Source: Candidatus Latescibacterota bacterium (GTDB lineage Bacteria > Latescibacterota > UBA2968 > GCA-2709665). Taken from it: DNA of 64,000 nucleotides. This document shows, in pieces, positions 1 to 14,690 of this stretch. Under the pieces are notes generated by a model, which ran no database searches, was not told where the DNA came from, and saw only the letters and a list, made by a program, of their open reading frames with translations. Positions within the stretch are counted from its first letter, which is position 1, and each line of letters begins with the position of its first letter. Location of the stretch: positions 2,720,001-2,784,000 of the forward strand of contig OZ244744.1 in assembly GCA_965219455.1 (NCBI GenBank), read 5' to 3'. The translations under genes and the position numbers were made by a program.

Positions 1-221
1 TGGGTATTCCGGAACCAGACCACCAAGCTCTGCGCAATGAGTTCCGGGACCGCTTTGTCGGGTTAGCTCTGGAAGCATTGAGGAGGAAGAGAATTTCGCG
101 TGCCGAACTTATCGATTTAGTAGGCATGTTGGACCTGGATGCCTGCGAAGTGGACCAGGCTGTTTCCGACCTGCAACTCGACGACGACGGTAGTACCGAC
201 GATTACGCACGTTGGACATAG
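1..221 (+). CDS. 3' end of probable XRE-HTH / ImmA-IrrE metallopeptidase fusion (truncated by window edge)
   Basis: Frame 3 is open from base 3 to TAG 219-221: GIPEPDHQALRNEFRDRFVGLALEALRRKRISRAELIDLVGML...; the RF.GLALEALRR..ISR.EL pattern resembles C-termini of ImmA/IrrE-family proteins; HEXXH not visible. Confidence 0.5.
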   Translation, partial: GIPEPDHQALRNEFRDRFVGLALEALRRKRISRAELIDLVGMLDLDACEVDQAVSDLQLDDDGSTDDYARWT

Positions 222-349
222 TGGATTATCGTCCAGACATCAAACTGAAATCTAACGTGCGAGCGAGACGCGATTTTCAGCTGGGTATATTGTCAATAAG
301 CGCACCTAAAACGGACATATCAAACACGAATCTTGTAGGAGATCTTGAA

Positions 350-1489
350 ATGCATACAATGACCTTTTTCCCGTTGGGAAACGCCGATTGCTGCCGGATT
401 GAACTGTCGTGTGACCGCATTATCCTTATTGATTTCGCGGCAACCAAAGACGAAAATGACGACTATGACCTTAGGTGTAACCTTCCGGAACTTCTCAAGG
501 ACGGCTTGAAGAAGAAGAATCGTGATTATTTCGATGTGGTAGCGTTCAGCCATCTGGATAAAGATCACTTCAAGGGGGCCTCCGACTTCTTCTACCTTGA
601 ACATGCGAGGAAGTACCAAGTCGGAGAACGTATAAAGATGAACGTAATGTGGGTACCTGCTGCGTTTATCACGGAGGTGGGTCCAGACGACGACGAAGCG
701 CGCGTCTTGCAGAGGGAGGCCCGACACAGATTCCGTCAGAGTAAGGGGATCCGCGTCTTTTCCCGGCCCGAACGGTTGAAGAAGTGGTGCGAAAAAAACG
801 ACATCAAGCTTGAAGACCGGCTTCACTTGATAACCGATGCGGGAAAGACCGCGCCGGAGTTTTCCCTGAGAAAACATCAGATCGAGTTTTTCGCTCACTC
901 TCCATTTGCGATCCGTCAGAACGAAAACACTGTCGAGGACCGCAACGAGGACTCGCTTGTGCTGCATGCAACTTTCCGTGTCGCAGGCGTACATACCAAA
1001 GCGCTGATGCTGGCTGATTCCACCCATGAAGTGCTTTCACAGATCGTAGACATCACCGAGTCCAAGGGTAACGAAAAATACCTTGAGTGGGATATCGTGA
1101 AGATTCCCCACCACTGCAGCTATCTTTCCATAGGATCCGAAAAGGGGACAAACAAAACCACGCCCGTTTCTCAGGTGGCGCGGCTATACGAAAAAGAGGG
1201 ACAGCATGGGGCGATCGCTGTGTCAACAAGCAAGCCAATTCCCCACGCAGGTAGCGACGACGACAAGGACTCGCAGCCACCCCACCGACAGGCCGCGAAT
1301 TATTACAAGGACGTCACGCGTGCCCTCAATGGCCAATTCGTCGTAACGATGGAACATCCATCGAGTAACTCTCCTAAGCCGTTGGTGATTGAAATCGGAC
1401 AAAGCAAAGCGACACTGAAAAAGAGTGTAGCGAGCACGGGAATAATCGCTACATCAGGTCGTGCAACGAGGGCAGGTTGGCAACGATGA
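350..1489 (+). CDS. MBL-fold metallo-hydrolase (ComEC/Rec2-like) with flexible C-terminal tail; first gene of ubiquitin-like operon
   Basis: ATG 350 after AGGAG (337-341); motifs FFPLGNADC, IDF, SHLDKDH, NEDS, ADS, KIPHHCS; ends ...TSGRATRAGWQR. Confidence 0.85.
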   Translation: MHTMTFFPLGNADCCRIELSCDRIILIDFAATKDENDDYDLRCNLPELLKDGLKKKNRDYFDVVAFSHLDKDHFKGASDFFYLEHARKYQVGERIKMNVMWVPAAFITEVGPDDDEARVLQREARHRFRQSKGIRVFSRPERLKKWCEKNDIKLEDRLHLITDAGKTAPEFSLRKHQIEFFAHSPFAIRQNENTVEDRNEDSLVLHATFRVAGVHTKALMLADSTHEVLSQIVDITESKGNEKYLEWDIVKIPHHCSYLSIGSEKGTNKTTPVSQVARLYEKEGQHGAIAVSTSKPIPHAGSDDDKDSQPPHRQAANYYKDVTRALNGQFVVTMEHPSSNSPKPLVIEIGQSKATLKKSVASTGIIATSGRATRAGWQR

Positions 1490-3729
1490 GTTATTTCGAT
1501 GTCTCAGGGGACCAGGTACGGCCAGACGCCCTTGAGATCCCAAAGGCCGAAGATCTTGCGCTCAGTCTGTCGGCTGAGCGCATTGATTTCGCCCGGTTCG
1601 TCGAATGTCGCCGGCAGGATGAAATTGAGGTCGTGGTGTTCGACGTCGATGTCGAAATCGCACAAGTGCAGCGTCATCCGATCAAGGCAAGAGAACGTAT
1701 TTCCGCGGCATTTACTCGAAATGACGAAAACGTACCTGTCGTCCACGCCCTACGGAAGGACTTCCCGCGAGTGCCGCATCTCAACCTGCATCGGCAAGAG
1801 TACCCACGCAACCTCTGTATATATGCTGAACCATATGAGGAGATTAAACGCCGCTGGACATCACCGAGATTCGTACATGAAATCCGGCAATGGCTCGCGT
1901 TAACCAGCAAGGGGAAACTCCACCAGGACGACCAACCCCTTGAACCCCTTCTTGTGGATTTCCACGGGCACATTGTCCTTCCTTCTACCCAACAATTGGA
2001 GGAGCACCTACCAACCCCGCTAGTCGTAGCGCCGGTGAAATCGGACTATAGTAAAGGCCTTTTTCTGATCGCACTAACAGGTGAACCGCAGGAAGGACCG
2101 CCGTCGCTACTTGCTAGTGTACATCGTTGCGAACCTCAGACACATGGGGTTATTCATCAAATTCCGTCGACACTTGCGGACCTTGCTGCCATCACGAAAG
2201 ACGCTAAGTTCGACCTCATTTCTGACCTTCAGCAACGACTGGAGACTTGGCGTGACCAAGGCAGGCCGGTACTCGACTCCTGTCTTCTCCTCGTTCTTTT
2301 ATTTCCCAAAAAACGGGATGAAACAGACGTGATCGAAACAGTCGATAGTTGGGCGTTTTTCCTGTTGGACACTGAAGGAGACAAGGTTGGTGAGGGACTG
2401 GAAATTCGACGACTCGGCACCGAGATCGGCCTTTGGGATCTTCAGGACAATCACGTTGGTTTTCTCATGCAACCCGACACATCGAAAAACGGTCGAAATG
2501 TCGGAGTCGCAGTGCTGAATGTGGTTCGTCACTTCGATCGCTCAATGGCAGCAAGGCTAAATGGTGAGAACGAGGTGGGGGATGTTCGTGTTGTTGCAAT
2601 CGGGATGGGCGCACTGGGTTCACATGTCGCAATCAATCTTGCGAGAACAGGGTTTGGAACTTGGACACTGATCGATCACGACATACTATTGCCGCATAAT
2701 TTGGCGCGGCATGCCCTCGACGGTAGTTTTGTGGGCTGGAACAAGGCAGATGGCGTTGCACGCTTAGCGAATACGATAGTTTTCCGTTCCGATATGTTCA
2801 GCTCACTTCCAGTAAACGTACTTTCACCTGGACGGCAAACTCAAGAATTATCCAATTCGCTGGCTGAGGCCAATGTGATACTGGACATGTCGGCATCTGT
2901 TGGAGTTTCACGGATGCTTGCGCACGAATGCAATGGCACGGCCCGCAGGATCTCGTTGTTCCTTTCCCCGTCTGGGCAGGATCTCGTTCTACTCGCTGAA
3001 GATAAGCAACGAAACAGCACCCTGGATTCTCTTGAAATGCAGTACTACAGGGCCATCCTAAACGACCCTAGCTTGACCGGGCATATGATTAGGCCACCTA
3101 GCCGGTATCGCTATGCCCAATCCTGTCGCGATATCACAAGCCAACTGCCACAGCAAATGGTAGTGAGCCATGCGAGCACGGGAGGACGAGCGGTTCGTGA
3201 CGCTGTTCGGTGTAATAAAGCACAAATAACGATCTGGCGGACAAACGAAAACGGTGTCGCAAAACGCGTCACAGTTTCCGCCGCTCCAGTTGTGCGGAAA
3301 ACTACGGACAACTGGGCAATTATCACTGACAGGGAATTGATTGAAACCCTGGCGAGTTTGCGTAAATCTAAACTTCCAAATGAGACTGGAGGCGTTCTCC
3401 TGGGTTCTTTCGATATGGAGAGAAGAATCGTCTACATCGTCGATGTGTTGCCTTCACCACCCGATAGCGAAGAGTGGCCCACATTGTATATCCGCGGATG
3501 TGAGGGTCTTCGGAAGAAAATCACAGAAATTGAAAAGAAAGTGGACGGGATGATTGAGTACGTCGGAGAATGGCATTCTCATCCAGATGGCGCTGGCACG
3601 TCTCCCAGCGAGGATGATGGAAACGTACTCGCGTGGTTGCGGAAATTGAGACAAGCAGACGGTTACCCTGCCACGATGGCAATTGTCGCAGAATCAGGCA
3701 ACGTGGGATTTTATGTAGAGCAAATATAA
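1486..3729 (+). CDS. Prokaryotic E2 + ThiF/E1 + JAB (JAMM) triple fusion
   Basis: ATGA overlap with upstream stop; E2-like FPRVPHLN...RNLCIY; E1 nucleotide loop IGMGALGS and IDHDILLPHNLARH, candidate catalytic Cys in QSCRD; JAB motifs ETGGVLLG and GEWHSHP...PSEDD. Confidence 0.92.
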   Translation: MSYFDVSGDQVRPDALEIPKAEDLALSLSAERIDFARFVECRRQDEIEVVVFDVDVEIAQVQRHPIKARERISAAFTRNDENVPVVHALRKDFPRVPHLNLHRQEYPRNLCIYAEPYEEIKRRWTSPRFVHEIRQWLALTSKGKLHQDDQPLEPLLVDFHGHIVLPSTQQLEEHLPTPLVVAPVKSDYSKGLFLIALTGEPQEGPPSLLASVHRCEPQTHGVIHQIPSTLADLAAITKDAKFDLISDLQQRLETWRDQGRPVLDSCLLLVLLFPKKRDETDVIETVDSWAFFLLDTEGDKVGEGLEIRRLGTEIGLWDLQDNHVGFLMQPDTSKNGRNVGVAVLNVVRHFDRSMAARLNGENEVGDVRVVAIGMGALGSHVAINLARTGFGTWTLIDHDILLPHNLARHALDGSFVGWNKADGVARLANTIVFRSDMFSSLPVNVLSPGRQTQELSNSLAEANVILDMSASVGVSRMLAHECNGTARRISLFLSPSGQDLVLLAEDKQRNSTLDSLEMQYYRAILNDPSLTGHMIRPPSRYRYAQSCRDITSQLPQQMVVSHASTGGRAVRDAVRCNKAQITIWRTNENGVAKRVTVSAAPVVRKTTDNWAIITDRELIETLASLRKSKLPNETGGVLLGSFDMERRIVYIVDVLPSPPDSEEWPTLYIRGCEGLRKKITEIEKKVDGMIEYVGEWHSHPDGAGTSPSEDDGNVLAWLRKLRQADGYPATMAIVAESGNVGFYVEQI

Positions 3730-3757: not shown

Positions 3758-4459
3758 ATGAAAAACTGGTTTCCCTTCACCGATTATGACTTCTATGCCT
3801 ACTTGTCATCGGGTATGATTGTCCTGTTCGCCCTCGACTACGGCATCAACGACGGCGCCGTAATGTTTAGGAATAGTTGGCCTTTTGTTCAGGTCGTTTT
3901 CTTAATAGCAACGGCGTACATCGTTGGGCACATAATCGCCGGATTCGCGTCGGTTCTCCTCGAACAATGGTTGGGTCGCAGATTCTTGCGTTCTCCTGTT
4001 TCTGTGATGATGGATATGGGTGCCTCCCGATTTCGTGAGAGGGTCATTAGGTGTTTCTTCGCTGTGCGGTATTACGAGCCGCAATCTGAACATATCCGAT
4101 CAAAAATTCTGCAGAATGTAGCCGAAAGGTTAGGAAAGGAACCTGAGAGGATCGACAACCCCGAGGAAGTGTTTCAAGTCGCGTTTCCCGTAGCGCGAGC
4201 AGTTCCGGACGCCGCCGCACGTTTAGATGAATTTCGTAGGATGTACGGATTCTCAAGGAATGTCGCATTGTCGGGAGTGGTGGGGGCAGGCGCTTTGGTT
4301 TACAAGGCTGCGACGTCTAATGAGGTTACGCTATATTTGTGGGCGGCAGTTGTCGCCATTCTCTCAATCTGCATGTTTGGCCGCTTCGTGAAATTCTATG
4401 CCGCCTTTGGTTCTGAGGTATTGCGAACATATGCTTCAAAAGCCGAGGAGAAGAGCTAA
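3758..4459 (+). CDS. Membrane protein with about four TM segments, putative effector
   Basis: Two hydrophobic helices near the N-terminus, a soluble middle and two near the C-terminus; stop overlaps next start (TAATG). Confidence 0.75.
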   Translation: MKNWFPFTDYDFYAYLSSGMIVLFALDYGINDGAVMFRNSWPFVQVVFLIATAYIVGHIIAGFASVLLEQWLGRRFLRSPVSVMMDMGASRFRERVIRCFFAVRYYEPQSEHIRSKILQNVAERLGKEPERIDNPEEVFQVAFPVARAVPDAAARLDEFRRMYGFSRNVALSGVVGAGALVYKAATSNEVTLYLWAAVVAILSICMFGRFVKFYAAFGSEVLRTYASKAEEKS

Positions 4460-5289
4460 TGAAGGTTGAAATCTTCGACGTTGAACATGGTGGTTGTGCG
4501 TTGATAACGGCCGACTCAGGCGCACGTATGCTTATCGATTGTGGTTCGAACTCATCAACCGGTTGGAGACCATCTCTTCATCTGCCGAGAAATGGGGTAG
4601 AAAACGTCGAAATGTTCGTGGTGACGAATTATGACGATGACCATGTGAACGACTTGCCAAACCTGCGGCGAGTTTCTGGTGGCCGCAGAACGGTAAATCT
4701 CAAGGCGCTTCTTAGGAACAGGACAATCTCGCCAGCGGCGCTCGTACGAATGAAAACGGATGGAGGTATGGGTCCTGGCATTCGGGAGCTCTTGGCGATG
4801 TTCAAGGAATATACAGGAGGGCCTCTTAAGGCTGACTGGGGGTCGCTGGAATACATTGTATTCTATAATTCCTATCCCGGTGACTTTAAGGACACGAACA
4901 ACCTCAGTCTCGTTATCTTTCTTCATTGCCACAATATGCATCTGGTGTTTCCGGGAGATTTGGAAAAGGCAGGATGGGAGAAGCTACTTGGAAACCCGGA
5001 ATTCGTTAAGGAACTAAAGACCGTGAATATCTTTGTTGCATCACACCATGGTCGCGAGAGTGGATGTTGTGAAGGAGTGTTTGAAATTCTTGGTGTAAAA
5101 CCATACGTTGTGATTTTTTCCGACGCAGGAATGCAATACGAAAGCCAGCGTACGGCGGACTGGTATCGTTCTCGAACCTACGGAATGAACTACAATGGGA
5201 AGAAGCGGCACGTTTTCACGACACGCCGTGACGGGAAAATCACTATCCAGGCGACACCGCGCCAAACGACAATTAGTACTGCTCGTTGA
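4459..5289 (+). CDS. ComEC/Rec2-like MBL-fold hydrolase with atypical metal motif
   Basis: FDVEHGGC, IDCG, TNYDDDH (replaces HxHxDH), NNLS, FPGDLE, SHHGR, TTRRDG. Confidence 0.85.
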   Translation: MKVEIFDVEHGGCALITADSGARMLIDCGSNSSTGWRPSLHLPRNGVENVEMFVVTNYDDDHVNDLPNLRRVSGGRRTVNLKALLRNRTISPAALVRMKTDGGMGPGIRELLAMFKEYTGGPLKADWGSLEYIVFYNSYPGDFKDTNNLSLVIFLHCHNMHLVFPGDLEKAGWEKLLGNPEFVKELKTVNIFVASHHGRESGCCEGVFEILGVKPYVVIFSDAGMQYESQRTADWYRSRTYGMNYNGKKRHVFTTRRDGKITIQATPRQTTISTAR

Positions 5290-5474: not shown

Positions 5475-6884
5475 TCAAACGGCCTCCCGCACGTCGATCT
5501 TTCCTGTCACCGCCGCGGATATGAGGGCTTGTCGGAGTTCCTTCAGGCGGTCGATAGCTTCTCGGACCTTCTCGACAAGAGCATCGATTTTGGCCGTCTC
5601 ACGGTCAAGGAAAGCGGCTATGGCGCGTTGTTCGGGAAGTGGTGGAAGCGCAAATACCCCCACACGAATAGAATCGCCAGTAAGCCCAAAACGTGTGATA
5701 CCGTTAGCTGCAATATGATACTGATCTCGCGGTCCGATTGCGGAAAATAATCTTCCAATGAACCCGCCGTAAGAATGAGCGTCAGGCTTGATGTGAGCCA
5801 AATGGTAACCGCACAAAACGCCAATAAGGTCTTCAGAGACTACCGATGGAACAGCAATGTCTGCCCAGGTCTCAGAATCCTTTGTTATTAAAACGTCCCC
5901 TGCCCGAAGGGAAAAACGACGCACCTGCTCCGACGTCGCAGTCGCAGGCATAAAATCAACGCGTTTGTCTATTAGTTCGTTGTAATACACGTCGACGTAA
6001 TTGCAAAGTCGGATATTATCTTCACGTTCCTTAGACTTCTTGTCCACATTGCTGAGTTGGACAGTGGCAAAGAATTTCAGTCGCTTAACCTCCCAATGCG
6101 CCGGAATCTCGCCGAGCCACTCGATACCCGAGTCCTGCATAGGCACGTCGGTATCGAGGCCTGCCTGCGCCGCAGCGTCGGCAGGCAGGCTCCGCGTGAC
6201 GGTGTGGCTGATGAGCGCGGCGCGCTTCTCCTGCAGCAACTCGATCAGCCGCTCCTTTTTCGCGACGAGGGCGTCGATCCTGGCCGTCTCGCGGTCAAGG
6301 AAAGCGGCAATGGCGCATTGTTCGGGGAGAGAAGGAACGGAGATTCTGAGGCTAGCGTAGCGTTCTGCACTCACATTTTGGATCGTTGCTTGAATGAAAG
6401 TGCTTTGAAGCCAGTCAGTGTAGCCCTGAGATTGCGTAAAGTATTCAACAAAGTTTGACAAGGCTTGAATATTGTCAAGACGCGCTCGAATCAGATACCC
6501 AGCATATGCTGCCTTGCCCCAACTGGGGTGGTACCGAAAAGTCTTTCCTACGGTTGCCCCGCTACGCGCGAATAAAATGTCGCCAGCGACAAGAAGATAG
6601 GGTTTTGCGATGTTCTCGGGAAGCGACCTGAAACTATCGTCCCTCAATGTTCCGTCTTCTCGAATGTCCGTGATTCGAATATAGCGCGGAAGATTGTTTT
6701 CAGTGTGTTCAGCGGGCTCGTTGGCACCATACTTCAAGGGTTCAGCCAGGAGATGTTTAAGGCGCTTTACCTCCCAATGCGCCGGAATTCGCCCAAGCCA
6801 CTCGACGCCGGAGTCCTTGTAGTCCGGGTACGGACTAATTCCATCATTAACGAAGTTCTGAACGTCAGACTGCCGGTGATTCAC
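5475..6884 (-). CDS. hsdS: Type I restriction-modification specificity subunit
   Basis: Duplicated conserved regions DSG(V/I)EWLG.IPAHWEVKRLK and PEQ.AIAAFLDRETA.IDALV, C-terminal ALISAAVTGKIDVR; GTG 6884 after GGAGG. Confidence 0.93.
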   Translation of the reverse strand: MNHRQSDVQNFVNDGISPYPDYKDSGVEWLGRIPAHWEVKRLKHLLAEPLKYGANEPAEHTENNLPRYIRITDIREDGTLRDDSFRSLPENIAKPYLLVAGDILFARSGATVGKTFRYHPSWGKAAYAGYLIRARLDNIQALSNFVEYFTQSQGYTDWLQSTFIQATIQNVSAERYASLRISVPSLPEQCAIAAFLDRETARIDALVAKKERLIELLQEKRAALISHTVTRSLPADAAAQAGLDTDVPMQDSGIEWLGEIPAHWEVKRLKFFATVQLSNVDKKSKEREDNIRLCNYVDVYYNELIDKRVDFMPATATSEQVRRFSLRAGDVLITKDSETWADIAVPSVVSEDLIGVLCGYHLAHIKPDAHSYGGFIGRLFSAIGPRDQYHIAANGITRFGLTGDSIRVGVFALPPLPEQRAIAAFLDRETAKIDALVEKVREAIDRLKELRQALISAAVTGKIDVREAV

Positions 6885-7004
6885 ATAGCCTCCGTGTACC
6901 TGGCTAAAACCTCTAACATCGTCTTGGTGCCCAAACGCCCGCTGCCAGATCATCGACCATCGTTTGCCCGTTCCACCGCGTCACAAAAGACCCTGAAAAA
7001 CCGT

Positions 7005-7300
7005 TCAATCCACCTCGTCTCGCAGAATCTTTCGAATTTGATCGACAGGCAGGAATTTCTCCTCGCACGATTGGAAAAGATAAAGTGCTGGAGCTTCGTC
7101 CAGGTTGCGGAGGAGCGCAGCCGCCCTTTTTGGCCATTCCTCTTTATTGGTATCGCCAATCAACGCCCGGAACACCAGGTCTGTTGTCTTAAGCGTTCTG
7201 GAATCGACAGGAATATCTTCGATCCAAACAATGGAAGCGGCGTTTTCCCAGATCTTGTTAATTCTGACGGACCGAGCGACGTATGTGACTGAAGATCTGC
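7005..7300 (-). pseudogene. Start-less protein-like reading frame (gene remnant)
   Basis: ...INKIWENAASIVWIEDIPVDSRTLKTTDLVFRALIGDTNKEEWPKRAAALLRNLDEAPALYLFQSCEEKFLPVDQIRKILRDEVD* with TGA at 7007-7005 and an in-frame stop just upstream. Confidence 0.35.
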
Positions 7301-7400
7301 GCCCTTATCGCCGATATACGTACGTTAGATTCTTACAGTAAGGCTTCTACGCAAGATGCGTACATGTTTAATCATGCTGCTTGCATACGGTAAGGTGTTG

Positions 7401-7493
7401 AAATCCCCCCACCGCATCAGCCGTCGCCGGCCCTTCGACAAGCTCAGGGGACGGGCTCGGCTTCTGCGACTCCCCCTCAAGGGGGGAGTGATT
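7401..7493. repeat. Composite REP-like palindromic element
   Basis: CTTCGACAAGCTCAG at 7433-7447 (related copies at 45428 and 45460) and hairpin ACTCCCCCTCAAGGGGGGAGT at 7469-7489. Confidence 0.55.
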
Positions 7494-7654
7494 GAACCTT
7501 CAAACGGGCTCGCCCGATAATTGCCACCTGTTTGGTTGCGGCTGAGCATGGCGAAGCCGCGCTTGGCCTATAGATCAAACAAGCCATTTGTCTCGTCGCG
7601 TTCGAATGCAGAAAGGTGGAGTTGCCGGTTTCGAGTTGAGCGACCCGCCCGGTG

Positions 7655-7996
7655 CTATCCGTCGAATTCGTACAAGAGGTTGTCACCGGACACGCCCGCG
7701 ATTCGAAGGTCGACCTTGCCCGGACCGGGTCCGTATAACTGCTGATAGCGCGTCCTGACCAGGGCGAGGTCGAAGACATGGGACTCGGTCAGCCATGCCT
7801 CGCAGAGATCGCCGTTCGCATTATGGGCGAGCACGGCCGGAAGCTGCACCGGATCCGACTCTCTGAACGATTTCGAGATTACCAGCGTGAAGTCGTGTCT
7901 CCGGCAGCCGGTCGCGGCGAGCACGGCGAGCAGTAGCGCGACCGAGGCCGCGCCCCTCTCGGCGGAAACCAGGGAACCGGCGGATCCGGATGTCAT
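7655..7996 (-). CDS. Small putative lipoprotein, possibly internally deleted
   Basis: ATG 7996 after GGAGGG; hydrophobic stretch ending LAATGC followed directly by RRHDFTLVISKSFRESDPVQL...HNANGDLCEA. Confidence 0.5.
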   Translation of the reverse strand: MTSGSAGSLVSAERGAASVALLLAVLAATGCRRHDFTLVISKSFRESDPVQLPAVLAHNANGDLCEAWLTESHVFDLALVRTRYQQLYGPGPGKVDLRIAGVSGDNLLYEFDG

Positions 7997-8179
7997 TGAT
8001 CCCTCCAGCGTTGGATTTCGAGTTGTCCCGCAAGACCGCAAAAGCAATATAGCACCGATTCGGCGCTTCAAGGCCGCCGATCGGGCCAGCCGGGCAGCTT
8101 TGTCCCGGTTGGCTGGCGCTTCACTTGAAGATATCGTATTCTTGCTGTGGTTCGTCAGGTAGAGAGACCAGAAAGACAA

Positions 8180-8215
8180 CAAATGTCGGCACTTAATAGT
8201 AACTGCCGACATTTG
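8180..8215. promoter_or_regulatory. Palindrome, second copy of the putative AbiEi operator
   Basis: CAAATGTCGGCACTTA-ATAG-TAACTGCCGACATTTG; 8181-8214 matches 10034-10067 at 29 of 34 positions. Confidence 0.55.
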
Positions 8216-8492
8216 ATGCTGATTGCCGATCCAATATATAATGAAGTTCGACATTTCAACATCGTTAAATTTATCGCCCGATCATCGTCTGTATTTTCTA
8301 CGAGTAAGCTGGCGCTTGGCCGTCCACGTACGCCCCACATTCCAAATCGAACGAACGCCTGCGGCGGACAATGATCAGGTAGGTACTTTGGACATTCGCG
8401 AATTTAGACAGATGAACCGTACCAAGGGGCCAACCCGCGGAGAGCCCAGTTCCAGCCGTGCACGGAGCGTACTCGGCTTTCATCAGAAAGGC

Positions 8493-9416
8493 CTATTCAT
8501 GTCGCCAGGGTCCACCTGCCTTCCAACTCCCCGTGAAACCGGCTCCGCGCGCCACAGCATCCCATGGTTCTCTGAAAAACGATATAAGACGGTCGCCCAA
8601 AGAACCGAAATCTGCGGGCGCACCCGCAAGCGCGTTCCGTTCCAGATAGGTACGCCACTGACCGGCACGCTCTCCATCAGCATAAAAGCGGGCCGTCAGA
8701 GCAACGGGTAGAGCCTGTGAGAAAGTTGTACGTCGTCGTTCGAAGGTCGCGCGCAAAGCTCTCAAGAGTTGATTGCCCTCGAAAGCAAAGTGCTGTATAA
8801 GGGCATAAAGATCGTAAAAGTCCTTGTTTCGACTGTTCCGTTCGCCCAACACAACCATCGCATGAAGCTTTTCCGCAACGACGGCCTCCCGCGGGTAGAC
8901 TCGGATATCCGGACTGGGATTGTCGAGCAAGGTCTTGTAAAGTGTGTCGGTCGGTGGCGGTTCGACGGCATTTCCAAAGCCAATATCGATCTGCATACGT
9001 ATACGTGCGTTATCCAGCGTCGCACTGAAACTTACGCGGAGACTATCATACATGTCCTGATCGCGAATGGTTTCGATCGCGATGTTGCTGATATCGAAGA
9101 CAAGTCCATCGTCGTCCACCGGAGTCTGACAGATTTCCCGGACCGTGGACCTTACTTCGTTCAATAACGAACTGCCGTAACCGGTAAAGTCTAGATCGCG
9201 GGTCGGGCGGTAGACTGCTTCAACCCAATGGACAAGAAGCATAGCGCCTTTCAAGATATAGCGATTGCGATACGGCGACTCTCCCAGCCGGTAGAGGAAT
9301 CGTTCTGCCGCGTATCGCTCCAGCAGGAACTGGAAATCCTCACCGGTTTGACGGCTCCGGTTCAACAATCTTGCGCGCACTGATGCGCCGACATTACGGC
9401 GCCCTCCGCGAGTCAT
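8493..9416 (-). CDS. abiEii: AbiEii-family nucleotidyltransferase toxin (type IV TA / abortive infection)
   Basis: SVRARLLN, ERFLYRL, LKGA, RPTRDLDF, QIDIGFG, EKLHAM, NSRNKDFYDL; ATGA-coupled to abiEi. Confidence 0.92.
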   Translation of the reverse strand: MTRGGRRNVGASVRARLLNRSRQTGEDFQFLLERYAAERFLYRLGESPYRNRYILKGAMLLVHWVEAVYRPTRDLDFTGYGSSLLNEVRSTVREICQTPVDDDGLVFDISNIAIETIRDQDMYDSLRVSFSATLDNARIRMQIDIGFGNAVEPPPTDTLYKTLLDNPSPDIRVYPREAVVAEKLHAMVVLGERNSRNKDFYDLYALIQHFAFEGNQLLRALRATFERRRTTFSQALPVALTARFYADGERAGQWRTYLERNALAGAPADFGSLGDRLISFFREPWDAVARGAGFTGSWKAGGPWRHE

Positions 9417-10006
9417 GTTTGAAGCGCCTCCAGGTAACTCCGCATAACCGTCTGCGCGCGGCAAACTTCTGCCGCTCGCATAATCTCGTCCACGGTCGCA
9501 GCACGCGATCGCAGAACATCATGCAGCGCCTCAAGCGCTATATCGAGTCCAAGCTTGTTGCGATACCGAAAACAATCCACGACGGTTCGGGCTGGCGAAG
9601 TGATGCGAAACGGTACCCCCAGCGCCGAATGGTGGGTTACCCCATAGGTTAGCATCGCACCTGAGAAACGGACCATGCGTACCCGAGCGGGCGGGCGAGC
9701 GGGTTTGCGAGCCTTGCGGTCCAGAGCGATCCAGATCTCGTGAGGCGACTGCGTGCCGATTTCGTGGAAACGAAGCGCCGTCAGCAGGCACATGACGGCA
9801 TTCGGTATGGCCGCAGCTACCATCGCGATCGTCTCTACCTCTGTCGCTTCGACCTCGGAGAGTCGATAAAGGCCATTTCCCAGACTATCGACGAGTCCTT
9901 CGGCGACGAGACCCATGAGTCGCCGATGTGAGATCCCGAACGGTGCGAGGTCTTTAGGTCGAAAATAGACACCCAGGCCCGCTTCTTGAAGTTGAGCAAT
10001 ATCCAT
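9413..10006 (-). CDS. abiEi: AbiEi-family antitoxin / transcriptional regulator
   Basis: N-terminal wHTH-like GNGLYRL; CLLTALRFHEIGTQSPHEIWIA; TSPARTVVDCFRYRNKLGLDIALEAL; alternative start 10018. Confidence 0.9.
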   Translation of the reverse strand: MDIAQLQEAGLGVYFRPKDLAPFGISHRRLMGLVAEGLVDSLGNGLYRLSEVEATEVETIAMVAAAIPNAVMCLLTALRFHEIGTQSPHEIWIALDRKARKPARPPARVRMVRFSGAMLTYGVTHHSALGVPFRITSPARTVVDCFRYRNKLGLDIALEALHDVLRSRAATVDEIMRAAEVCRAQTVMRSYLEALQT

Positions 10007-10033
10007 TGGGTGAACCATTTGCGAAATGATACT

Positions 10034-10075
10034 AAATGTCGTCACTTTATCGTAACTGCCGATAATTGTTGTCAA
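10034..10075 (-). promoter_or_regulatory. abiE promoter with overlapping inverted-repeat operator
   Basis: TTGACA at 10075-10070 and TACGAT at 10054-10049 (15-nt spacer, short); imperfect palindrome 10034-10067. Confidence 0.55.
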
Positions 10076-10103
10076 TCTGCTGGTCAAATAAGGGCGCGGG
10101 ATG

Positions 10104-10391
10104 TTATCGAAAACCTCTGAGCCGGGCCAGGAGACTCTTTGCGTGCCGGCAAGCGTCTTCGACGAGACCCGGGTCGATTTGCGCCAGGAGGATTGGAACG
10201 GCACCTCCCTTCGAATCGTCGAGTGCCGTAGTAAAACGGTTGAATGTCTGTTGACGCGTGCCTCCCCGCACCACTCTCGGCATTCGACCGCCGAGTCCAG
10301 CCTTTGCAAGGAAAGCCTTCCAAGCCTCGCGGAACTGCGCACCAAGGCGGCGATTGTCGCCCCCGCCCTCAATATATAGTACGGCTGTCAC
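10104..10391 (-). pseudogene. DUF4276-family protein with large in-frame internal deletion
   Basis: Typical N-terminus (LYIEGGG...FREAW..FL.KAG) joined at ILL|AQIDP to a typical C-terminus; only 95 aa and central acidic motifs missing. Confidence 0.65.
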
Positions 10392-11605
10392 CAGCGATTT
10401 CCTCCGATTTGTCCGGAACTCCAGAGATTACCCAGTGTGTAATCCTTCAGCCATTTGGCGAGATCGGCTTTGTCGAGCCGACCCATCTCGGTCTGTCCAT
10501 CGTGCTTTTCGCAGACTATCACGCTCTCGGGTGTGTCGGTTAGCGCATCCACCAACGCGTCGGAATGAGTCGTTACGACCAATTGACTGCGTTCCGACGC
10601 TGAGACAAGCAAGTCGGCCACAGTGGGTAAAAGGTCCGGATGCAAGCCTAGTTCCGGTTCCTCGATCACCACCAGGGGAGGCGGTTCAGGATGGAGCAGA
10701 ATGGCCAACAGACACAGATAACGCGATGTGCCGTCTGAAATGCGTGTGGCCGGAATCTGGCGGTTGTCCGCTTCTACCAGAAATAGTGCCATGTTACCAC
10801 CGTCTACTGAAAAAGTGATGTCGACGATGCCGTCAAAGAGTTTCTGCAGAGCTGTGACGAGTTGCCCTTTGTTTTCGCCACGGAAGTGCGACAACACAAG
10901 CGCGAGGTTTGTGCTGTCCTCATCCAGAAAATCGGCGCGGTCGTGGGCGCTCTGGTTCCTGCGGCACGCTGCCGAGGGACCGAGAAACCAATCGCGGTAA
11001 AGACGAAGTTGCCCGTATTGTTCCTTCAGATGCCACAGAATCGGATACTCAGGACTTGCAAAGTAAACGAGAGAATGTTCCGGACGATAGTAGCTTTGAA
11101 ACCCTATACTCCGGGTTCCTTTTACAATGGCTGGTGGCGGTCCCAAAGGGGCGGACGAATAATGCGGCGTCGACCTGTCAGCTGACGAATCGACATCTGG
11201 CTCTTCCTTTCTGGGTGGTCGATAGTAGGAAAGCGGGGGAAGTAATTCGACATAGGCGCCCAAAGGCTCGACCTGCTCGTCGATCACTTCGGGACGATCG
11301 TTACTGTGGCCAAGTGTCAACGAATGGCGCGCGATGCGGTCCGCACCATATTCGACAAACACTTCCAATGCGAATGAGTCCAGCGCATCTCGCCCGTTCC
11401 ACAACCACGACTCAACGCCCCCCATACGCGAGATCGGATCTGTTATGCAACTCGGCGCCGCCCTAAGCAAGGCAATTGCTTCCAGAAAGTTCGACTTTCC
11501 TGAGCCGTTCGGGCCAATGAGGACGTTCAGCGGTTCCATGGGCAAGTCAACTCCATCGGGTCCGAACGACAGGAGGCCGGAAATTTTCAATTTATGAATC
11601 AACAT
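10388..11605 (-). CDS. ABC-like AAA ATPase (AAA_21/AAA_15 type)
   Basis: Walker A GPNGSGKS, signature ISDGT, Walker B IEEPELGLHP, TTHS H-loop. Confidence 0.9.
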   Translation of the reverse strand: MLIHKLKISGLLSFGPDGVDLPMEPLNVLIGPNGSGKSNFLEAIALLRAAPSCITDPISRMGGVESWLWNGRDALDSFALEVFVEYGADRIARHSLTLGHSNDRPEVIDEQVEPLGAYVELLPPLSYYRPPRKEEPDVDSSADRSTPHYSSAPLGPPPAIVKGTRSIGFQSYYRPEHSLVYFASPEYPILWHLKEQYGQLRLYRDWFLGPSAACRRNQSAHDRADFLDEDSTNLALVLSHFRGENKGQLVTALQKLFDGIVDITFSVDGGNMALFLVEADNRQIPATRISDGTSRYLCLLAILLHPEPPPLVVIEEPELGLHPDLLPTVADLLVSASERSQLVVTTHSDALVDALTDTPESVIVCEKHDGQTEMGRLDKADLAKWLKDYTLGNLWSSGQIGGNRW

Positions 11606-11753
11606 ATCGGCTCCTCAAGCATGCGTAGCGGTTATTTTGCCGTGCAAACACACCCGTCAGTTTTTCAGGCCGCTTATGACGTGTTCCTAGTAAGCAGTCC
11701 TTCCAGGCTGAAGTCAACTCTATCATCAATTGATGAGCCTTCTGCCGTTCTCG

Positions 11754-12068
11754 TCATACGCTAAGTTCGATGTCGCGTGGCGCAATCGCTTCCAGTTCCT
11801 CTGCCTCAGACCGGGTGGCGTGATACAGATCCCAACGTAGCTGCAGATTCAGCCAAAACGCGGCCGAAACGTTGAAATATCTCCCCAGGCGCAGGGCCGT
11901 GCTAGGAGTAATACCTCGTCGACCGTTTACCAGTTCGTTGACCCATTGACAGGGCACATGAATGGCGGTAGCCAATTCCCGTTGTGTTAAATTCAACGAA
12001 TTCAGAAACTCCTCAAGCAACATCACGCCCGGATGAGTGGGGACACGATTGGTTGGAATACGTACCAT
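11754..12068 (-). CDS. higA: HigA-family addiction module antitoxin
   Basis: THPG.ML.EEFL, TQRELA, NELVNGRRGITPSTALRL, FWLNLQ..WDL. Confidence 0.9.
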   Translation of the reverse strand: MVRIPTNRVPTHPGVMLLEEFLNSLNLTQRELATAIHVPCQWVNELVNGRRGITPSTALRLGRYFNVSAAFWLNLQLRWDLYHATRSEAEELEAIAPRDIELSV

Positions 12069-12090
12069 GATCCAAACCTTTGGTTAATCG

Positions 12091-12150
12091 TTAGTGATAG
12101 TCGAAGATCTCCACATCAGTGGGACCGGCAATCCGGCCACGCAAAGCAGT
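12091..12150 (-). pseudogene. higB: C-terminal remnant of HigB toxin
   Basis: CFAWPD(frameshift)AGPTDVEIFDYH* directly upstream of higA, matching the typical HigB ending CF.W..AGP.DVEI.DYH. Confidence 0.7.
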
Positions 12151-12172
12151 TGCCATAGATACTTTTGGTGGC

Positions 12173-14326
12173 TCAGACCGTTGCGCCGGACATTTCCTTC
12201 AACATCTCCATTATGTCCTTTTCGATATGCTGAATATCGGCCTCGATCTCCGGAAGTGGCCGCGGCGGCTTATACTGGTAGAAATAACGGTTGAAGTTGA
12301 TCTCGTAGCCCACAAAACCGACCTTTCCGTCCCGATGATCGCGCTTCGATGTATCTATCCACGCTTCCGGAACATGAGGTTTGACCTCCCGCTCGAAAAA
12401 GGCGCGAACGCTGGCTGGGACGCCGTCGCCGTCCACGGGGTCCGCCCCATCGGCGAGCGGTACGCGCTCGGTGTCACGCAACTCCGGGTCGGGTTCGGGC
12501 GCGCCGTTTTTTCCCCGGCAGATCGTGGCTGTTTCATCGCGCTCGCCAAGAGCCGTGAGGATTGCCTTCTGCACCGGCGCCGCGAGTTTAAGACCGGCTC
12601 TCCGCGCCGCTTCCGCGAGTTCTGCCAGAAATACCTCGCGGTCTTTGTGAAGGGTGTCGGGCAGCTTCTCGAGCGTGGTCAAAATTTCCTGCTGCAGAGC
12701 GCGGCCATCGGCCTTTTCCCTGAGGCCGGCGTCGCCCCGTTTCTTCGATTTGGCCAGATTCTGAAATCCTGTCTGTTCGCTCAGCCGTGCGATGCGTTCC
12801 GCGCTTGCCTGAAAATTGAGTCGCAGCGGTCGTTCAACCGTAATTCTCCGATATCCGAATCGCTTCGTAGAGAAGACACGGCTGACGACTTTGTCTTCTT
12901 CCTCGCCGTCTTCAGAGACCTTCCGCGTCTCGCCATCGTGAAAGCCCCGCAGGAGACCCAGCACGTCGTCTGCTTTCCCAGGTGGTATCTCCCGCCGCTT
13001 GTCGCCCAGGCTCCGGCGCATCGGCTTCCAGAAGGTCGTGGCGTCGATAAGCTGCACCTTGCCCTTGCGTTCCGGAGCCTTGCGGTTGCTCAAAACCCAC
13101 ACATAGGTTGCAATGCCGGTGTTGTAGAAAAGCTGCTCGGGCAGCGCAATCAACGCCTCCAGCAGGTCGTTTTCCATAATATATCGGCGAATTTCACTTT
13201 CGCCGCTGCCCGCGTCACCCGTAAACAAGGGCGAACCGTTCATGATGATCGCAATGCGTGCGCCTCCCTGGTCCGGCGCCCGGGCGTGAGCGAGCATGTG
13301 CAGCAGGAACAGTGTTTGACCGTCGCTGATGCGCGGGAGCCCAGGGCCGAAGCGCCCGGCCGCGCCCCGTTCATGTTCGGACTCGACCGAGGTCTTGTCG
13401 CGTTTCCAGTCCTTTCCATAGGGCGGATTCGCGATCAGGTAATCAAAATGGTGGGCGGCATGCCGATCGTTTGAGAGCGTGCTGCCAAAAACGACCTTGT
13501 CCGCGTCGCGGCCCGTCGGATCCTTCATATACATGTCAGACTTTGAGACCGCCCACGTCTCCGGGTTCACTTCCTGGCCGAAGAGATGGATCTCCGCCTC
13601 CGGTTTGATAGCGGGGCGAGGGATTTCGCCGTTGCTTCGCATGCCCCTCGTAATGTGTTCCTTGGCGATGGTCAACATGCCGCCGGAGCCGCAGCACGGG
13701 TCGTAAACACTGCGCACAACGCCGGGTCGGGCGATGCGGTCTTTCTCACCGGCGAGCATGAGGTCCACCATCAGGTGGACCACGTCCCTCGGTGTGAAGT
13801 GCTCCCCGGGATTCTCATCCAGGGCTTCGTTGAATCTGCGGATCAACTCTTCAAAGACCGTCCCCATGGTCGCGTTGTCGATCCGATCCGGATGCAGGTC
13901 GACGTTCTTGAACCGCTCCAGCACCTGGAACAGCAGCCCCGCTTCATCGAGCTTGCTGATCGTGTTGTCGAGGTCGAATCGTTCCAACACCTCGCGCATG
14001 TTATCGCTGAAACCGGCGATGTAGTTTCTCAGGTTGGCGGCAAGTTGGGGCGCATCGGCCAGCAACGTGTCGAAGTCATAGCGTGAAGTGTTGTAGAATG
14101 CGAAGCCGGATGTTTCGCGCAGTTGCCCCTTCAGATCTTCAAGGCCGCGACCTCTCAACTCCGCCTGGCGTTTGAGCACTTGTTGCTTGGTCGGCGCAAG
14201 AACGCAGTCAAGGCGGCGCAGCACGGTCAGAGGAAGAATGACGTCCTGGTATTTGCCGCGCTTGAAGCTGTCGCGGATGAGATCCGCAACGCCCCAGATG
14301 AAGCTGACGATCTCACTGTGATTCAT
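12173..14326 (-). CDS. hsdM: Type I RM N6-adenine methyltransferase subunit
   Basis: FIWGVADLIR, GEHFTPRDVV, YDPCCGSGGML, NPPY, GSPLFTGDAGSGESEIR, GYEINFNRYFY. Confidence 0.95.
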   Translation of the reverse strand: MNHSEIVSFIWGVADLIRDSFKRGKYQDVILPLTVLRRLDCVLAPTKQQVLKRQAELRGRGLEDLKGQLRETSGFAFYNTSRYDFDTLLADAPQLAANLRNYIAGFSDNMREVLERFDLDNTISKLDEAGLLFQVLERFKNVDLHPDRIDNATMGTVFEELIRRFNEALDENPGEHFTPRDVVHLMVDLMLAGEKDRIARPGVVRSVYDPCCGSGGMLTIAKEHITRGMRSNGEIPRPAIKPEAEIHLFGQEVNPETWAVSKSDMYMKDPTGRDADKVVFGSTLSNDRHAAHHFDYLIANPPYGKDWKRDKTSVESEHERGAAGRFGPGLPRISDGQTLFLLHMLAHARAPDQGGARIAIIMNGSPLFTGDAGSGESEIRRYIMENDLLEALIALPEQLFYNTGIATYVWVLSNRKAPERKGKVQLIDATTFWKPMRRSLGDKRREIPPGKADDVLGLLRGFHDGETRKVSEDGEEEDKVVSRVFSTKRFGYRRITVERPLRLNFQASAERIARLSEQTGFQNLAKSKKRGDAGLREKADGRALQQEILTTLEKLPDTLHKDREVFLAELAEAARRAGLKLAAPVQKAILTALGERDETATICRGKNGAPEPDPELRDTERVPLADGADPVDGDGVPASVRAFFEREVKPHVPEAWIDTSKRDHRDGKVGFVGYEINFNRYFYQYKPPRPLPEIEADIQHIEKDIMEMLKEMSGATV

Positions 14327-14469
14327 CGGTTCGCTCCACGATTTCGATTGGGGAAATAACGACGACCCCTTTACGCGTTTCCCGTTCAGTTCGCTAACAA
14401 TATAACACAAAATGGCAATAAAACAGAGAATGGCCTTTTCGCGTTCTAAACAGTGCCCGGTAGACGCAT

Positions 14470-14498
14470 GTAGGGGCAGGTTTGAAACCTGCCCCGAC
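14470..14498. repeat. GTAG-type REP palindrome
   Basis: GTAGGGGCAGGTTTGAAACCTGCCCCGAC. Confidence 0.75.
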
Positions 14499-14690
14499 TG
14501 GAGAGGCATCGGCAGGCGCGAAGGCCTTGTCTTGTTTTCGCATGTGAAGATAAGGAGGTTTCTTATTAGCGAAAACGGTTTAAATCGATAATAATAAACG
14601 CACGTAGACGAAAAAAGAACTGACTTGCATTATACAAGCCAGTTCAGGGTAGATGGGATAGCTGAAAAGGGGTTTCTGAATCAGCGCCGC

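What the first reader, a model, noticed from the sequence alone, without database searches (positions are those of the whole stretch)
1420..1489. First MBL ends in a flexible tail ...GRATRAG-WQR: candidate pro-form conjugation substrate
Seen: after the MBL fold comes a small-residue tail KKSVASTGIIATSGRATRAG plus three extra residues WQR. Established: in type II CBASS the CD-NTase's flexible C-terminus is adenylated by Cap2 and cleaved by the Cap3 JAB. Inference: the MBL enzyme itself is the 'ubiquitin' here, and the fused JAB must clip WQR to expose Gly before E1/E2 ligate the MBL to host or phage proteins. Alternatively the TGG after GGT is a mutated stop codon.
Basis: inference. Interest (0 to 1): 0.75.

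Follow-up and report, generated by a model that had tools for sequence, protein, structure and literature searches.

The report
6A-MBL defence enzyme with pro-form tail
This is one more copy of an already named two-gene anti-phage system (6A-MBL), whose nuclease-like enzyme carries a floppy tail ending in a conserved Arg-Ala-Gly that the neighbouring ubiquitin-type ligase/protease most likely trims and then attaches to other molecules.

Summary
The first MBL-fold protein (350..1489, +) ends ...SGRATRAG-WQR, and the last 20 residues are predicted disordered. Its stop overlaps the start of an E2-E1-JAB fusion gene.

All 120 closest homologues have RAG within the last 13 residues. 91 end exactly at that Gly and 29 carry 1-10 extra, variable residues. 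The Gly persists down to about 25% identity, and every locus checked has the E2-E1-JAB gene next door (15 of 15 and 8 of 8).

The pair is not new. NCBIfam names both proteins as the "anti-phage 6A-MBL system". It is operon type 6a of Iyer et al. 2006. A 2024 preprint already states that MBL pathways conjugate their enzyme as type II CBASS does. This scan also filed the same reading on other DNA.

What this work adds is modest: pro-form extensions are common and evolutionarily labile, which implies trimming by the JAB domain. No biochemistry was tested, and the complex prediction never ran because the queue was full.

The parts
350..1489 (+). 6A-MBL enzyme: ComEC-like MBL-fold metallo-hydrolase, 379 aa, probably made as a pro-form
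   Evidence: NCBIfam NF058524 scores 390.8 bits against a cut-off of 220. AF2 pLDDT is 92.9. The top Foldseek match is ComEC MBL domain 9ic4. Metal ligands H68/D72/H183/D223/H255 are invariant.
1427..1477 (+). Disordered Ala/Ser/Thr-rich tail (residues 360-376) ending in T-R-A-G; Gly376 is the proposed conjugation residue
   Evidence: pLDDT is below 50 for residues 360-379. RAG is found in 120 of 120 homologues. The G column is 86 of 88, R 79 of 88 and P 74 of 88. The codons for R, A and G vary synonymously among loci.
1478..1486 (+). Three-residue extension W-Q-R after the conserved Gly (proposed pro-peptide)
   Evidence: 91 of 120 homologues stop directly after RAG, 19 of 120 have 3 extra residues and 10 of 120 have 1, 2, 4, 5 or 10. 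The extensions vary in sequence (SQR, RRS, KES, RQI, RYI, WHR, WRS ...) in proteins 75-92% identical. 9 of 15 related loci have a stop codon where the window has TGG.
1486..3729 (+). E2-E1-JAB fusion ('cap2_3'), 747 aa; its start ATG overlaps the MBL stop (ATGA)
   Evidence: Pfam Prok-E2_A, ThiF and Prok-JAB. NCBIfam NF058523 scores 630.9 bits against a cut-off of 320. The top Foldseek match is Cap2 7to3_A, E 5e-25. C111, C547 and H697/H699/D711 are invariant.
3..221 (+). 3' end of an HTH (XRE) + Peptidase_M78/IrrE fusion gene directly upstream; a possible regulator whose membership in the system is uncertain
   Evidence: Pfam on the whole gene, L018:12839-14218. An 88% identical stretch lies upstream of the pair in L006.

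Best explanation
The two genes at 350..3729 are a member of the 6A-MBL anti-phage system. The MBL-fold enzyme is a ComEC-like metallo-phosphodiesterase or nuclease with an intact metal site, and it plays the part that ubiquitin, or cGAS in type II CBASS, plays elsewhere. Its about 20-residue disordered tail presents Arg-Ala-Gly376. In this copy the protein is translated with three extra residues (WQR), because the stop that most relatives have after the Gly has been lost and reading continues to the TGA inside the ATGA junction with the next gene. Inferred steps follow. The JAB domain of the neighbouring fusion protein cuts after Gly376. The E1 domain adenylates the freed carboxylate and takes it as a thioester on C547. 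It then passes to the E2 cysteine C111 and on to an amino group of a still unknown target, or of the system's own proteins. The same JAB can reverse the link. Conjugation would prime or localise the nuclease-like enzyme during phage infection. What is shown here: the sequence features, their conservation, the gene linkage and the fold similarities. What is inferred: every chemical step, the target and the biological outcome. Confidence differs by part: about 0.95 that this is a 6A-MBL member, and about 0.65 that Gly376 is conjugated after JAB-dependent removal of WQR.
For: Family membership: both NCBIfam 6A-MBL models score above their cut-offs, and only one copy exists in the 5.84 Mb genome.

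Gene linkage: 15 of 15 genome loci have the MBL immediately followed by the E2-E1-JAB gene. So do 8 of 8 fetched plasmid loci and the metagenome locus L019.

Tail conservation:
- RAG is present in 120 of 120 close homologues and is terminal in 91.
- Of 77 representatives of 50%-identity clusters whose match reaches the tail, 42 end in G, 3 end in A, 23 have R/K/Q-x-G plus a short extension, 7 carry a long extra domain and 2 are other.
- Distant plasmid copies end ...PRAG-VSNQ (Klebsiella, E. coli)...TYG-K (C. perfringens)...PHG-AS (A. baumannii)...PRAG-RWR (Gluconobacter)...GYG-AEAI (Hymenobacter) and PRAG-stop (Polaromonas, Nostoc).

Controls: terminal G occurs in 13 of 120 members of the MBL2 family and 12 of 120 members of the fusion family.

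The conservation is at the protein level. R is encoded by agg, cgg, cgc, cgt or cga; A by gca, gct or gcg; G by ggt, ggc, gga or ggg.

The extension is tolerated and labile. There are at least 24 state changes on a tree of 86 scored sequences, against a shuffled mean of 26.8 with range 18-32.

The tail is disordered. The ligase and peptidase active sites are invariant. Cap2 is the nearest solved relative.

Literature:
- In Jenson et al. 2023, the C-terminal Gly/Ala of cGAS is thioestered by Cap2 and conserved only in operons with Cap2 and Cap3 (PMC10097602, passages).
- In the Ledvina et al. preprint, Cap3 cuts a cGAS-GFP fusion after the last cGAS residue (passages).
- The Ye et al. preprint Discussion says MBL pathways conjugate their enzymes and that JAB peptidases can cleave pre-proteins (PMC11601596, section 12 read).
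Against: Nothing biochemical was tested. The window has Thr where 74 of 88 relatives have Pro before RAG, so this tail is slightly atypical. In type II CBASS the JAB (Cap3) is described mainly as an antagonist that removes conjugates. A maturing role is documented for Bil, not for Cap3-like domains. The primary paper on 6A-MBL (van den Berg et al. 2024, Cell Host Microbe 32:1427) is not held. I therefore do not know whether it tested the tail, or whether its results agree. Seven of 77 family representatives have a long extra C-terminal domain and no terminal Gly, so a conjugatable tail is not universal in the wider MBL family.
Confidence: 0.7

Rival explanations
1. The extension is a lesion. 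The lost stop leaves a tail that the E1 cannot adenylate, so in this clade the MBL works unconjugated, or the system is decaying, and WQR is never removed.
For: 9 of 15 related loci have a stop where the window has TGG. The extension sequences look unconstrained. In CBASS, conjugation is needed against only some phages (PMC10097602 passages). The window also has T instead of the usual P before RAG.
Against: RAG stays intact behind the extension in all 29 of 29 extended close homologues. It also stays intact in Klebsiella/E. coli plasmid copies at about 25% identity, which is not expected if the tail had lost its use. All E2, E1 and JAB catalytic residues of the window's fusion are intact. The extension state flips at least 24 times on the tree without loss of the motif.
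Confidence: 0.15
2. The E1 domain activates the tail for a chemistry other than protein conjugation, as ThiF/MoeB or MccB do with their substrates. Examples would be thiocarboxylation or a nucleotide/peptide adduct.
For: The E1 domain also matches MoeB, ThiF and MccB. Jenson et al. themselves leave open that the target need not be a protein.
Against: An E2 domain with invariant H98/N100/C111 and a JAB isopeptidase domain are fused to the E1 in 69 of 69 sequences. Iyer et al. note that JAB is absent from the sulfur-transfer operons (PMC1779556, section 16). The whole-protein fold is closest to Cap2 and then Atg7.
Confidence: 0.1
3. RAG is conserved for a reason unrelated to the protein end, for example because its codons serve as the ribosome-binding site of the overlapping downstream gene.
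For: The purine-rich codons (agg gca ggt) lie 9-17 nt upstream of the next ATG, and the genes are tightly coupled.
Against: The three codons vary synonymously among loci while the amino acids do not. The motif sits exactly at the protein end in 91 of 120 homologues. Distant members keep only x-G.
Confidence: 0.03

Closest known systems
6A-MBL anti-phage system (operon type 6a of Iyer, Burroughs & Aravind 2006; NCBIfam NF058524 + NF058523)
   Same: The two genes, their order and their domain content are the same: a specialised MBL followed by an E2-E1-JAB 'triple module' protein. Both family models score above their cut-offs, which matches the description in PMC1779556 section 14 and Table 1 row 6a.
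   Different: This copy is translated with a 3-residue extension after the conserved Gly, as are 29 of 120 close homologues. It sits next to an extra membrane-protein + second-MBL pair that 15 of 15 related loci lack. I could not read the paper that named and tested the system.
Type II CBASS: CD-NTase (cGAS-like) + Cap2 (E2-E1) + Cap3 (JAB)
   Same: The ligase is Cap2-like by sequence (7tsq, E 3e-11) and by fold (7to3_A, E 5e-25). The peptidase is Cap3-like (NF050170, 1e-8). In both, a non-ubiquitin enzyme has a disordered tail ending in a conserved Gly/Ala (one search compared).
   Different: There is no CD-NTase and no cyclic-nucleotide effector. The conjugated enzyme is an MBL-fold hydrolase. 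The JAB is fused to the ligase. Many members need trimming before the Gly is exposed.
Bil (BilABCD) systems and ubiquitin/Ubl precursors
   Same: A pre-protein with residues beyond the reactive Gly is matured by a JAB peptidase (stated for Bil in PMC10557695 and PMC11601596). Short variable C-terminal pro-peptides on ubiquitin, NEDD8, SUMO and Atg8 are recalled, not checked here. The R-A-G register resembles ubiquitin's R-G-G (also recalled).
   Different: The conjugated unit here is a 376-residue enzyme, not a beta-grasp protein.

Membership tests
6A-MBL anti-phage system | MBL-fold protein of the 6A-MBL enzyme family | tested here: met
   NF058524 gives E 5.4e-117 and 390.8 bits against a cut-off of 220. 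The profile covers residues 6-351, so it does not include the tail.
6A-MBL anti-phage system | E2-E1-JAB fusion ('cap2_3') protein | tested here: met
   NF058523 scores 630.9 bits against a cut-off of 320. Pfam finds Prok-E2_A, ThiF and Prok-JAB.
6A-MBL anti-phage system | The two genes are adjacent on one strand, MBL first | tested here: met
   The genes share an ATGA overlap at 1486-1489. The same order is found in 15 of 15 genome loci.
6A-MBL anti-phage system | Protects against phage | not testable with these tools
   Known to me only through citing papers. The context is a defence island: type I RM, AbiE and Fic.
Ubiquitin-like conjugation substrate (as cGAS in type II CBASS) | Flexible C-terminal tail with conserved terminal Gly/Ala, specific to proteins paired with E1/E2 | tested here: met
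   The Gly is internal by 3 residues in this copy. Two control families show 10-11% terminal Gly.
Ubiquitin-like conjugation substrate (as cGAS in type II CBASS) | Thioester with E1/E2 cysteines and isopeptide conjugates | not testable with these tools
   This needs biochemistry. The complex prediction did not run.
Type II CBASS | CD-NTase and a cyclic-nucleotide-activated effector in the operon | tested here: not met
   None of the four operon proteins matched a CD-NTase or CBASS effector model in Pfam or PADLOC. Only the E1-E2 and JAB models hit.
Beta-grasp ubiquitin-like proteins | Beta-grasp fold | tested here: not met
   The model is an MBL alpha-beta/beta-alpha sandwich. The top matches are ComEC, Pce and CPSF73-type MBLs.
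PADLOC candidate PDC-M48 (genes 3758..5289) | Protein B plus its partner protein A | tested here: inconclusive
   The second MBL matches PDC-M48B at 7.4e-85, and the membrane protein matches nothing. In 3 genomes of the same phylum the B homologue follows a 333-336 aa MBL-like protein instead.

The most novel reading that the evidence does not exclude
In the sizeable fraction of 6A-MBL systems made as pro-forms, the fused JAB is an obligatory activator (a zymogen-style safety catch) rather than only the brake that Cap3 is in CBASS. That fraction is 29 of 120 close homologues and 6 of 8 sampled plasmid copies, including the common Klebsiella/E. coli ones. The frequent gain and loss of the extension would then tune how tightly the nuclease-like enzyme is held back. 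A bolder but less likely reading is that, in this clade, the adjacent membrane protein and second MBL work with the conjugation pair as one four-gene system.
Probability: 0.4. Interest if true: 0.45.

Novelty: new member of a known kind. Interest (0 to 1): 0.3.

Why it matters
It gives comparative support, from several hundred sequences, for the idea that a whole enzyme rather than a ubiquitin-like domain is the conjugated unit in a second bacterial defence family besides CBASS. It also shows that many members, including those on widespread Klebsiella and E. coli plasmids, must be trimmed first, which predicts a positive role for the JAB domain. For genome annotation it means that residues beyond ...RAG in these proteins are not errors. 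The system and the general idea are already known, so the value is confirmatory.

Tried and rejected
Eight answers were 'queue full' and five were not sent on. It never ran, so there is no result of any kind.

- No held paper combines 'lactamase' with Cap2+Cap3+ubiquitin or with ubiquitin-like+CBASS+thioester.
- '6A-MBL' occurs in only 2 relevant held papers, each a one-line mention.
- The primary paper (van den Berg 2024) and the Nature version of Ledvina 2023 are not held. Whether the RAG tail, or mutants of it, are already in print remains open.

AGS_C-fused MBL relatives were wanted as a natural 'no-tail' control.
- The metagenome scan with P0153 returned only one locus, an ordinary tailed 6A-MBL pair plus a patatin gene.
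- No plasmid record covers 80% or more of P0153.
- Their gene context therefore stays unknown.

The idea that genes 3 and 4 belong to the system is rejected as a general feature, because they are absent from 15 of 15 related loci. By matching contig lengths, two close relatives seem to carry a close MBL2 homologue on the same contig as the pair (13,823 and 40,329 bases). That match is not proof.

The search of this scan's notes with the membrane protein sequence found nothing. The Atlas look-up gave only unnamed clusters.

Full report
**What is there**

On the + strand, an ORF listed as 212..1489 encodes a protein ending ...KKSVASTGIIATSGRATRAGWQR. Its stop TGA (1487-1489) overlaps the ATG (1486-1488) of the next gene. 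The homologues start at the position of ATG 350, so the protein is most likely 379 aa.

Pfam finds nothing in this protein. NCBIfam places it in NF058524, 'anti-phage 6A-MBL system MBL-fold protein', at 390.8 bits against a cut-off of 220. An AlphaFold2 model built on 88 sequences is confident (pLDDT 92.9, pTM 0.90), except for residues 360-379, which are all below 50. The closest solved fold is the nuclease-type beta-lactamase-like domain of ComEC, 9ic4, E 3e-13. The metal-binding residues H68, D72, H183, D223 and H255 are invariant. The 'MBL fold followed by a flexible small-residue tail' is therefore real.

**The neighbour**

Gene 1486..3729 encodes 747 aa with Prok-E2_A, ThiF and Prok-JAB domains. 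It matches NF058523, '6A-MBL system cap2_3 protein', at 630.9 bits against a cut-off of 320.

- Its model (pLDDT 86) is closest to Cap2 of Enterobacter cloacae in complex with its CD-NTase (7to3_A, E 5e-25, 645 aligned columns), and then to Atg7.
- By sequence, Cap2 is also the best solved relative, at 3e-11.
- In 69 aligned homologues the E2 residues H98, N100 and C111 are invariant. So are the E1 glycine loop 373-378, D397, N405, R408, K420 and C547, and the JAB residues E633, H697, H699 and D711. The same holds in 14 sequences taken from loci.

Yes.

- All 120 best database homologues (59-92% identical, out of 4,224 hits) have RAG within the last 13 residues. 91 end exactly with it and 29 continue for 1-10 residues.
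- Of 15 loci found in species-representative genomes, 9 end at RAG and 6 continue (SQR, SRG, RA, WTRKA, CARNQ, CTCNQ).
- Among representatives of 50%-identity clusters, 77 have a match reaching the tail region. Of those, 42 end in G, 3 end in A, 23 have R/K/Q-x-G followed by a short extension, 7 have a long extra C-terminal domain and 2 are otherwise.
- In the 88-row alignment the Gly column is G in 86, the Arg column R in 79, the Pro column P in 74 and the Ala column A in 62. The window is one of two rows with Thr instead of Pro.
- Eight plasmid copies at 25-51% identity end PRAG-VSNQ (K. pneumoniae, E. coli), TYG-K (C. perfringens), PHG-AS (A. baumannii), PRAG-RWR (Gluconobacter), GYG-AEAI (Hymenobacter) and PRAG-stop (Polaromonas, Nostoc).
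- As controls, Gly is the last residue in 13 of 120 homologues of the window's second MBL and in 12 of 120 homologues of the fusion protein.
- The three codons vary synonymously among loci, so the constraint is on the protein, not on a ribosome-binding site.

**Linkage**

The MBL gene is followed directly by the E2-E1-JAB gene in 15 of 15 genome loci and in 8 of 8 plasmid loci by their annotation and my translation. The same holds in metagenome locus L019.

**The extension**

Where the window reads ggt TGG caa cga TGA, relatives read ggt TGA agc gaA TGg. The spacing to the next ATG is the same. The window's form is what results when the stop is lost and reading continues to the TGA of the ATGA junction.

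It is not a private mutation, though. All nine nearest relatives (84-92% identical) also have three extra residues, and they differ in sequence: SQR, RRS, KES, RQI, RYI, WHR.

On a FastTree of the 88 sequences, built without their last 25 residues, the state 'extended or not' needs at least 24 changes. There were 52 sequences without an extension, 34 with one and 2 unscored. Shuffled labels give a mean of 26.8 with range 18-32. The trait is thus gained and lost almost freely while RAG stays. I read that as evidence that the extension does no harm, which is what a built-in trimming peptidase would allow. The tree is a quick one and the sequences are sparse, so the count is rough.

**Mechanism proposed (all inferred)**

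- The JAB domain trims WQR.
- The E1 domain adenylates Gly376 and carries it on C547.
- It is transferred to C111 of the E2 domain.
- It is ligated to an unknown amino group.
- The JAB can reverse the link.

This follows what was shown for cGAS, Cap2 and Cap3. Those findings are a thioester through the C-terminal Gly, and conservation of Gly/Ala only in operons with Cap2 and Cap3 (PMC10097602, passages). A further one is Cap3 cleavage directly after the last cGAS residue of a fusion (preprint 10.1101/2022.03.31.486616, passages). It also follows what is stated for Bil pre-proteins (PMC10557695, passages).

**What is known already**

[quoted passage not shown] They guessed that ThiS/MoaD or an operon-encoded Ubl would be the modifier, not the MBL (PMC1779556, sections 14 and 16 and Table 1 read).

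NCBIfam release 20 names the system. A 2025 preprint lists 6A-MBL among defences against jumbo phages (10.1101/2025.09.30.679545, passage). A 2026 review credits van den Berg et al. 2024 with its discovery (PMC13276650, passage).

[quoted passage not shown] The idea is therefore in print. I saw no printed data on the RAG motif or on extensions, but I could not read the primary paper. This scan's own notes already hold the same reading for other genomes (e1-2497644, e1-1020609, e1-3071259, e1-5219680). I re-derived it from this window's data rather than relying on them.

**Surroundings**

The pair lies in a defence island, inside a split type I restriction locus:

- Upstream: an HsdR fused to a Schlafen/AlbA_2 domain, and a Fic gene.
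- Downstream: HsdS, an AbiEii/AbiEi pair, an AAA_21 ATPase and HsdM.

Directly upstream on the same strand is an HTH + Peptidase_M78 fusion gene, also seen upstream in the 87% identical locus L006. Genes 3758..4459 (membrane protein, no family) and 4459..5289 (second MBL, PADLOC PDC-M48B, 7.4e-85) are absent from all 15 related loci. I treat them as a neighbouring module.

**Verdict**

This is a new member of a known kind. The one modest addition is that pro-form tails are common and labile. Interest 0.3.

Noticed in passing
window 3758-5289 (+): A 233-aa membrane protein with no family match is followed, with overlapping stop and start, by a second MBL-fold protein (276 aa) that matches PADLOC candidate PDC-M48B at 7.4e-85. 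Neither occurs in 15 of 15 related 6A-MBL loci. Homologues of the second MBL in 3 genomes of the same phylum follow a 333-336 aa MBL-like protein instead of a membrane protein. Two close relatives may carry all four genes on one contig, judged only by equal contig lengths.
   Followed up: partly
L018:12839-14221 (+), ending at window 221: An HTH (XRE-type) + Peptidase_M78/IrrE fusion gene of 460 aa lies directly upstream of the pair on the same strand. It is also upstream in L006. It recalls the CapH/CapP regulators of CBASS, a resemblance I recall rather than tested. The Klebsiella, E. coli and Acinetobacter plasmid copies instead have a divergent WYL-domain gene upstream.
   Followed up: no
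L019:4298-5437 and L024 (Gluconobacter pGOX1) 7325-8473: A patatin-like phospholipase gene follows the E2-E1-JAB gene as a tightly packed third gene in two unrelated 6A-MBL loci. This is the kind of effector that CBASS uses (CapV). The window has no such gene.
   Followed up: partly
proteins P0145, P0153, P0165, P0204: Four relatives of the MBL (36-45% identical) lack the Gly tail and instead carry a C-terminal AGS_C domain (PF18134), the sensor domain otherwise found on nucleotide cyclases and SMODS enzymes. Their gene context could not be found.
   Followed up: partly
L018:7827-11351 (-) and window 5475-14509: The 6A-MBL pair is inserted in a split type I restriction-modification locus. HsdR carries a C-terminal Schlafen/AlbA_2 domain. 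HsdS and HsdM lie downstream, with an AbiEii/AbiEi pair and an AAA_21 ATPase between them, and a Fic/DOC gene lies upstream.
   Followed up: no
plasmid collection: Relatives of the MBL occur on 277 plasmid records (Klebsiella 122, Clostridium 31, Escherichia 25, Acinetobacter 17), 137 of them on conjugative plasmids. They are annotated only as 'hypothetical protein' next to 'ThiF family adenylyltransferase'.
   Followed up: partly
proteins P0122 and P0124: P0122 ends ...APRAGRGPSRAG, with two copies of the motif seven residues apart. P0124 (725 aa) has about 350 extra N-terminal residues with no Pfam match, before an MBL that still ends in PRAG.
   Followed up: no
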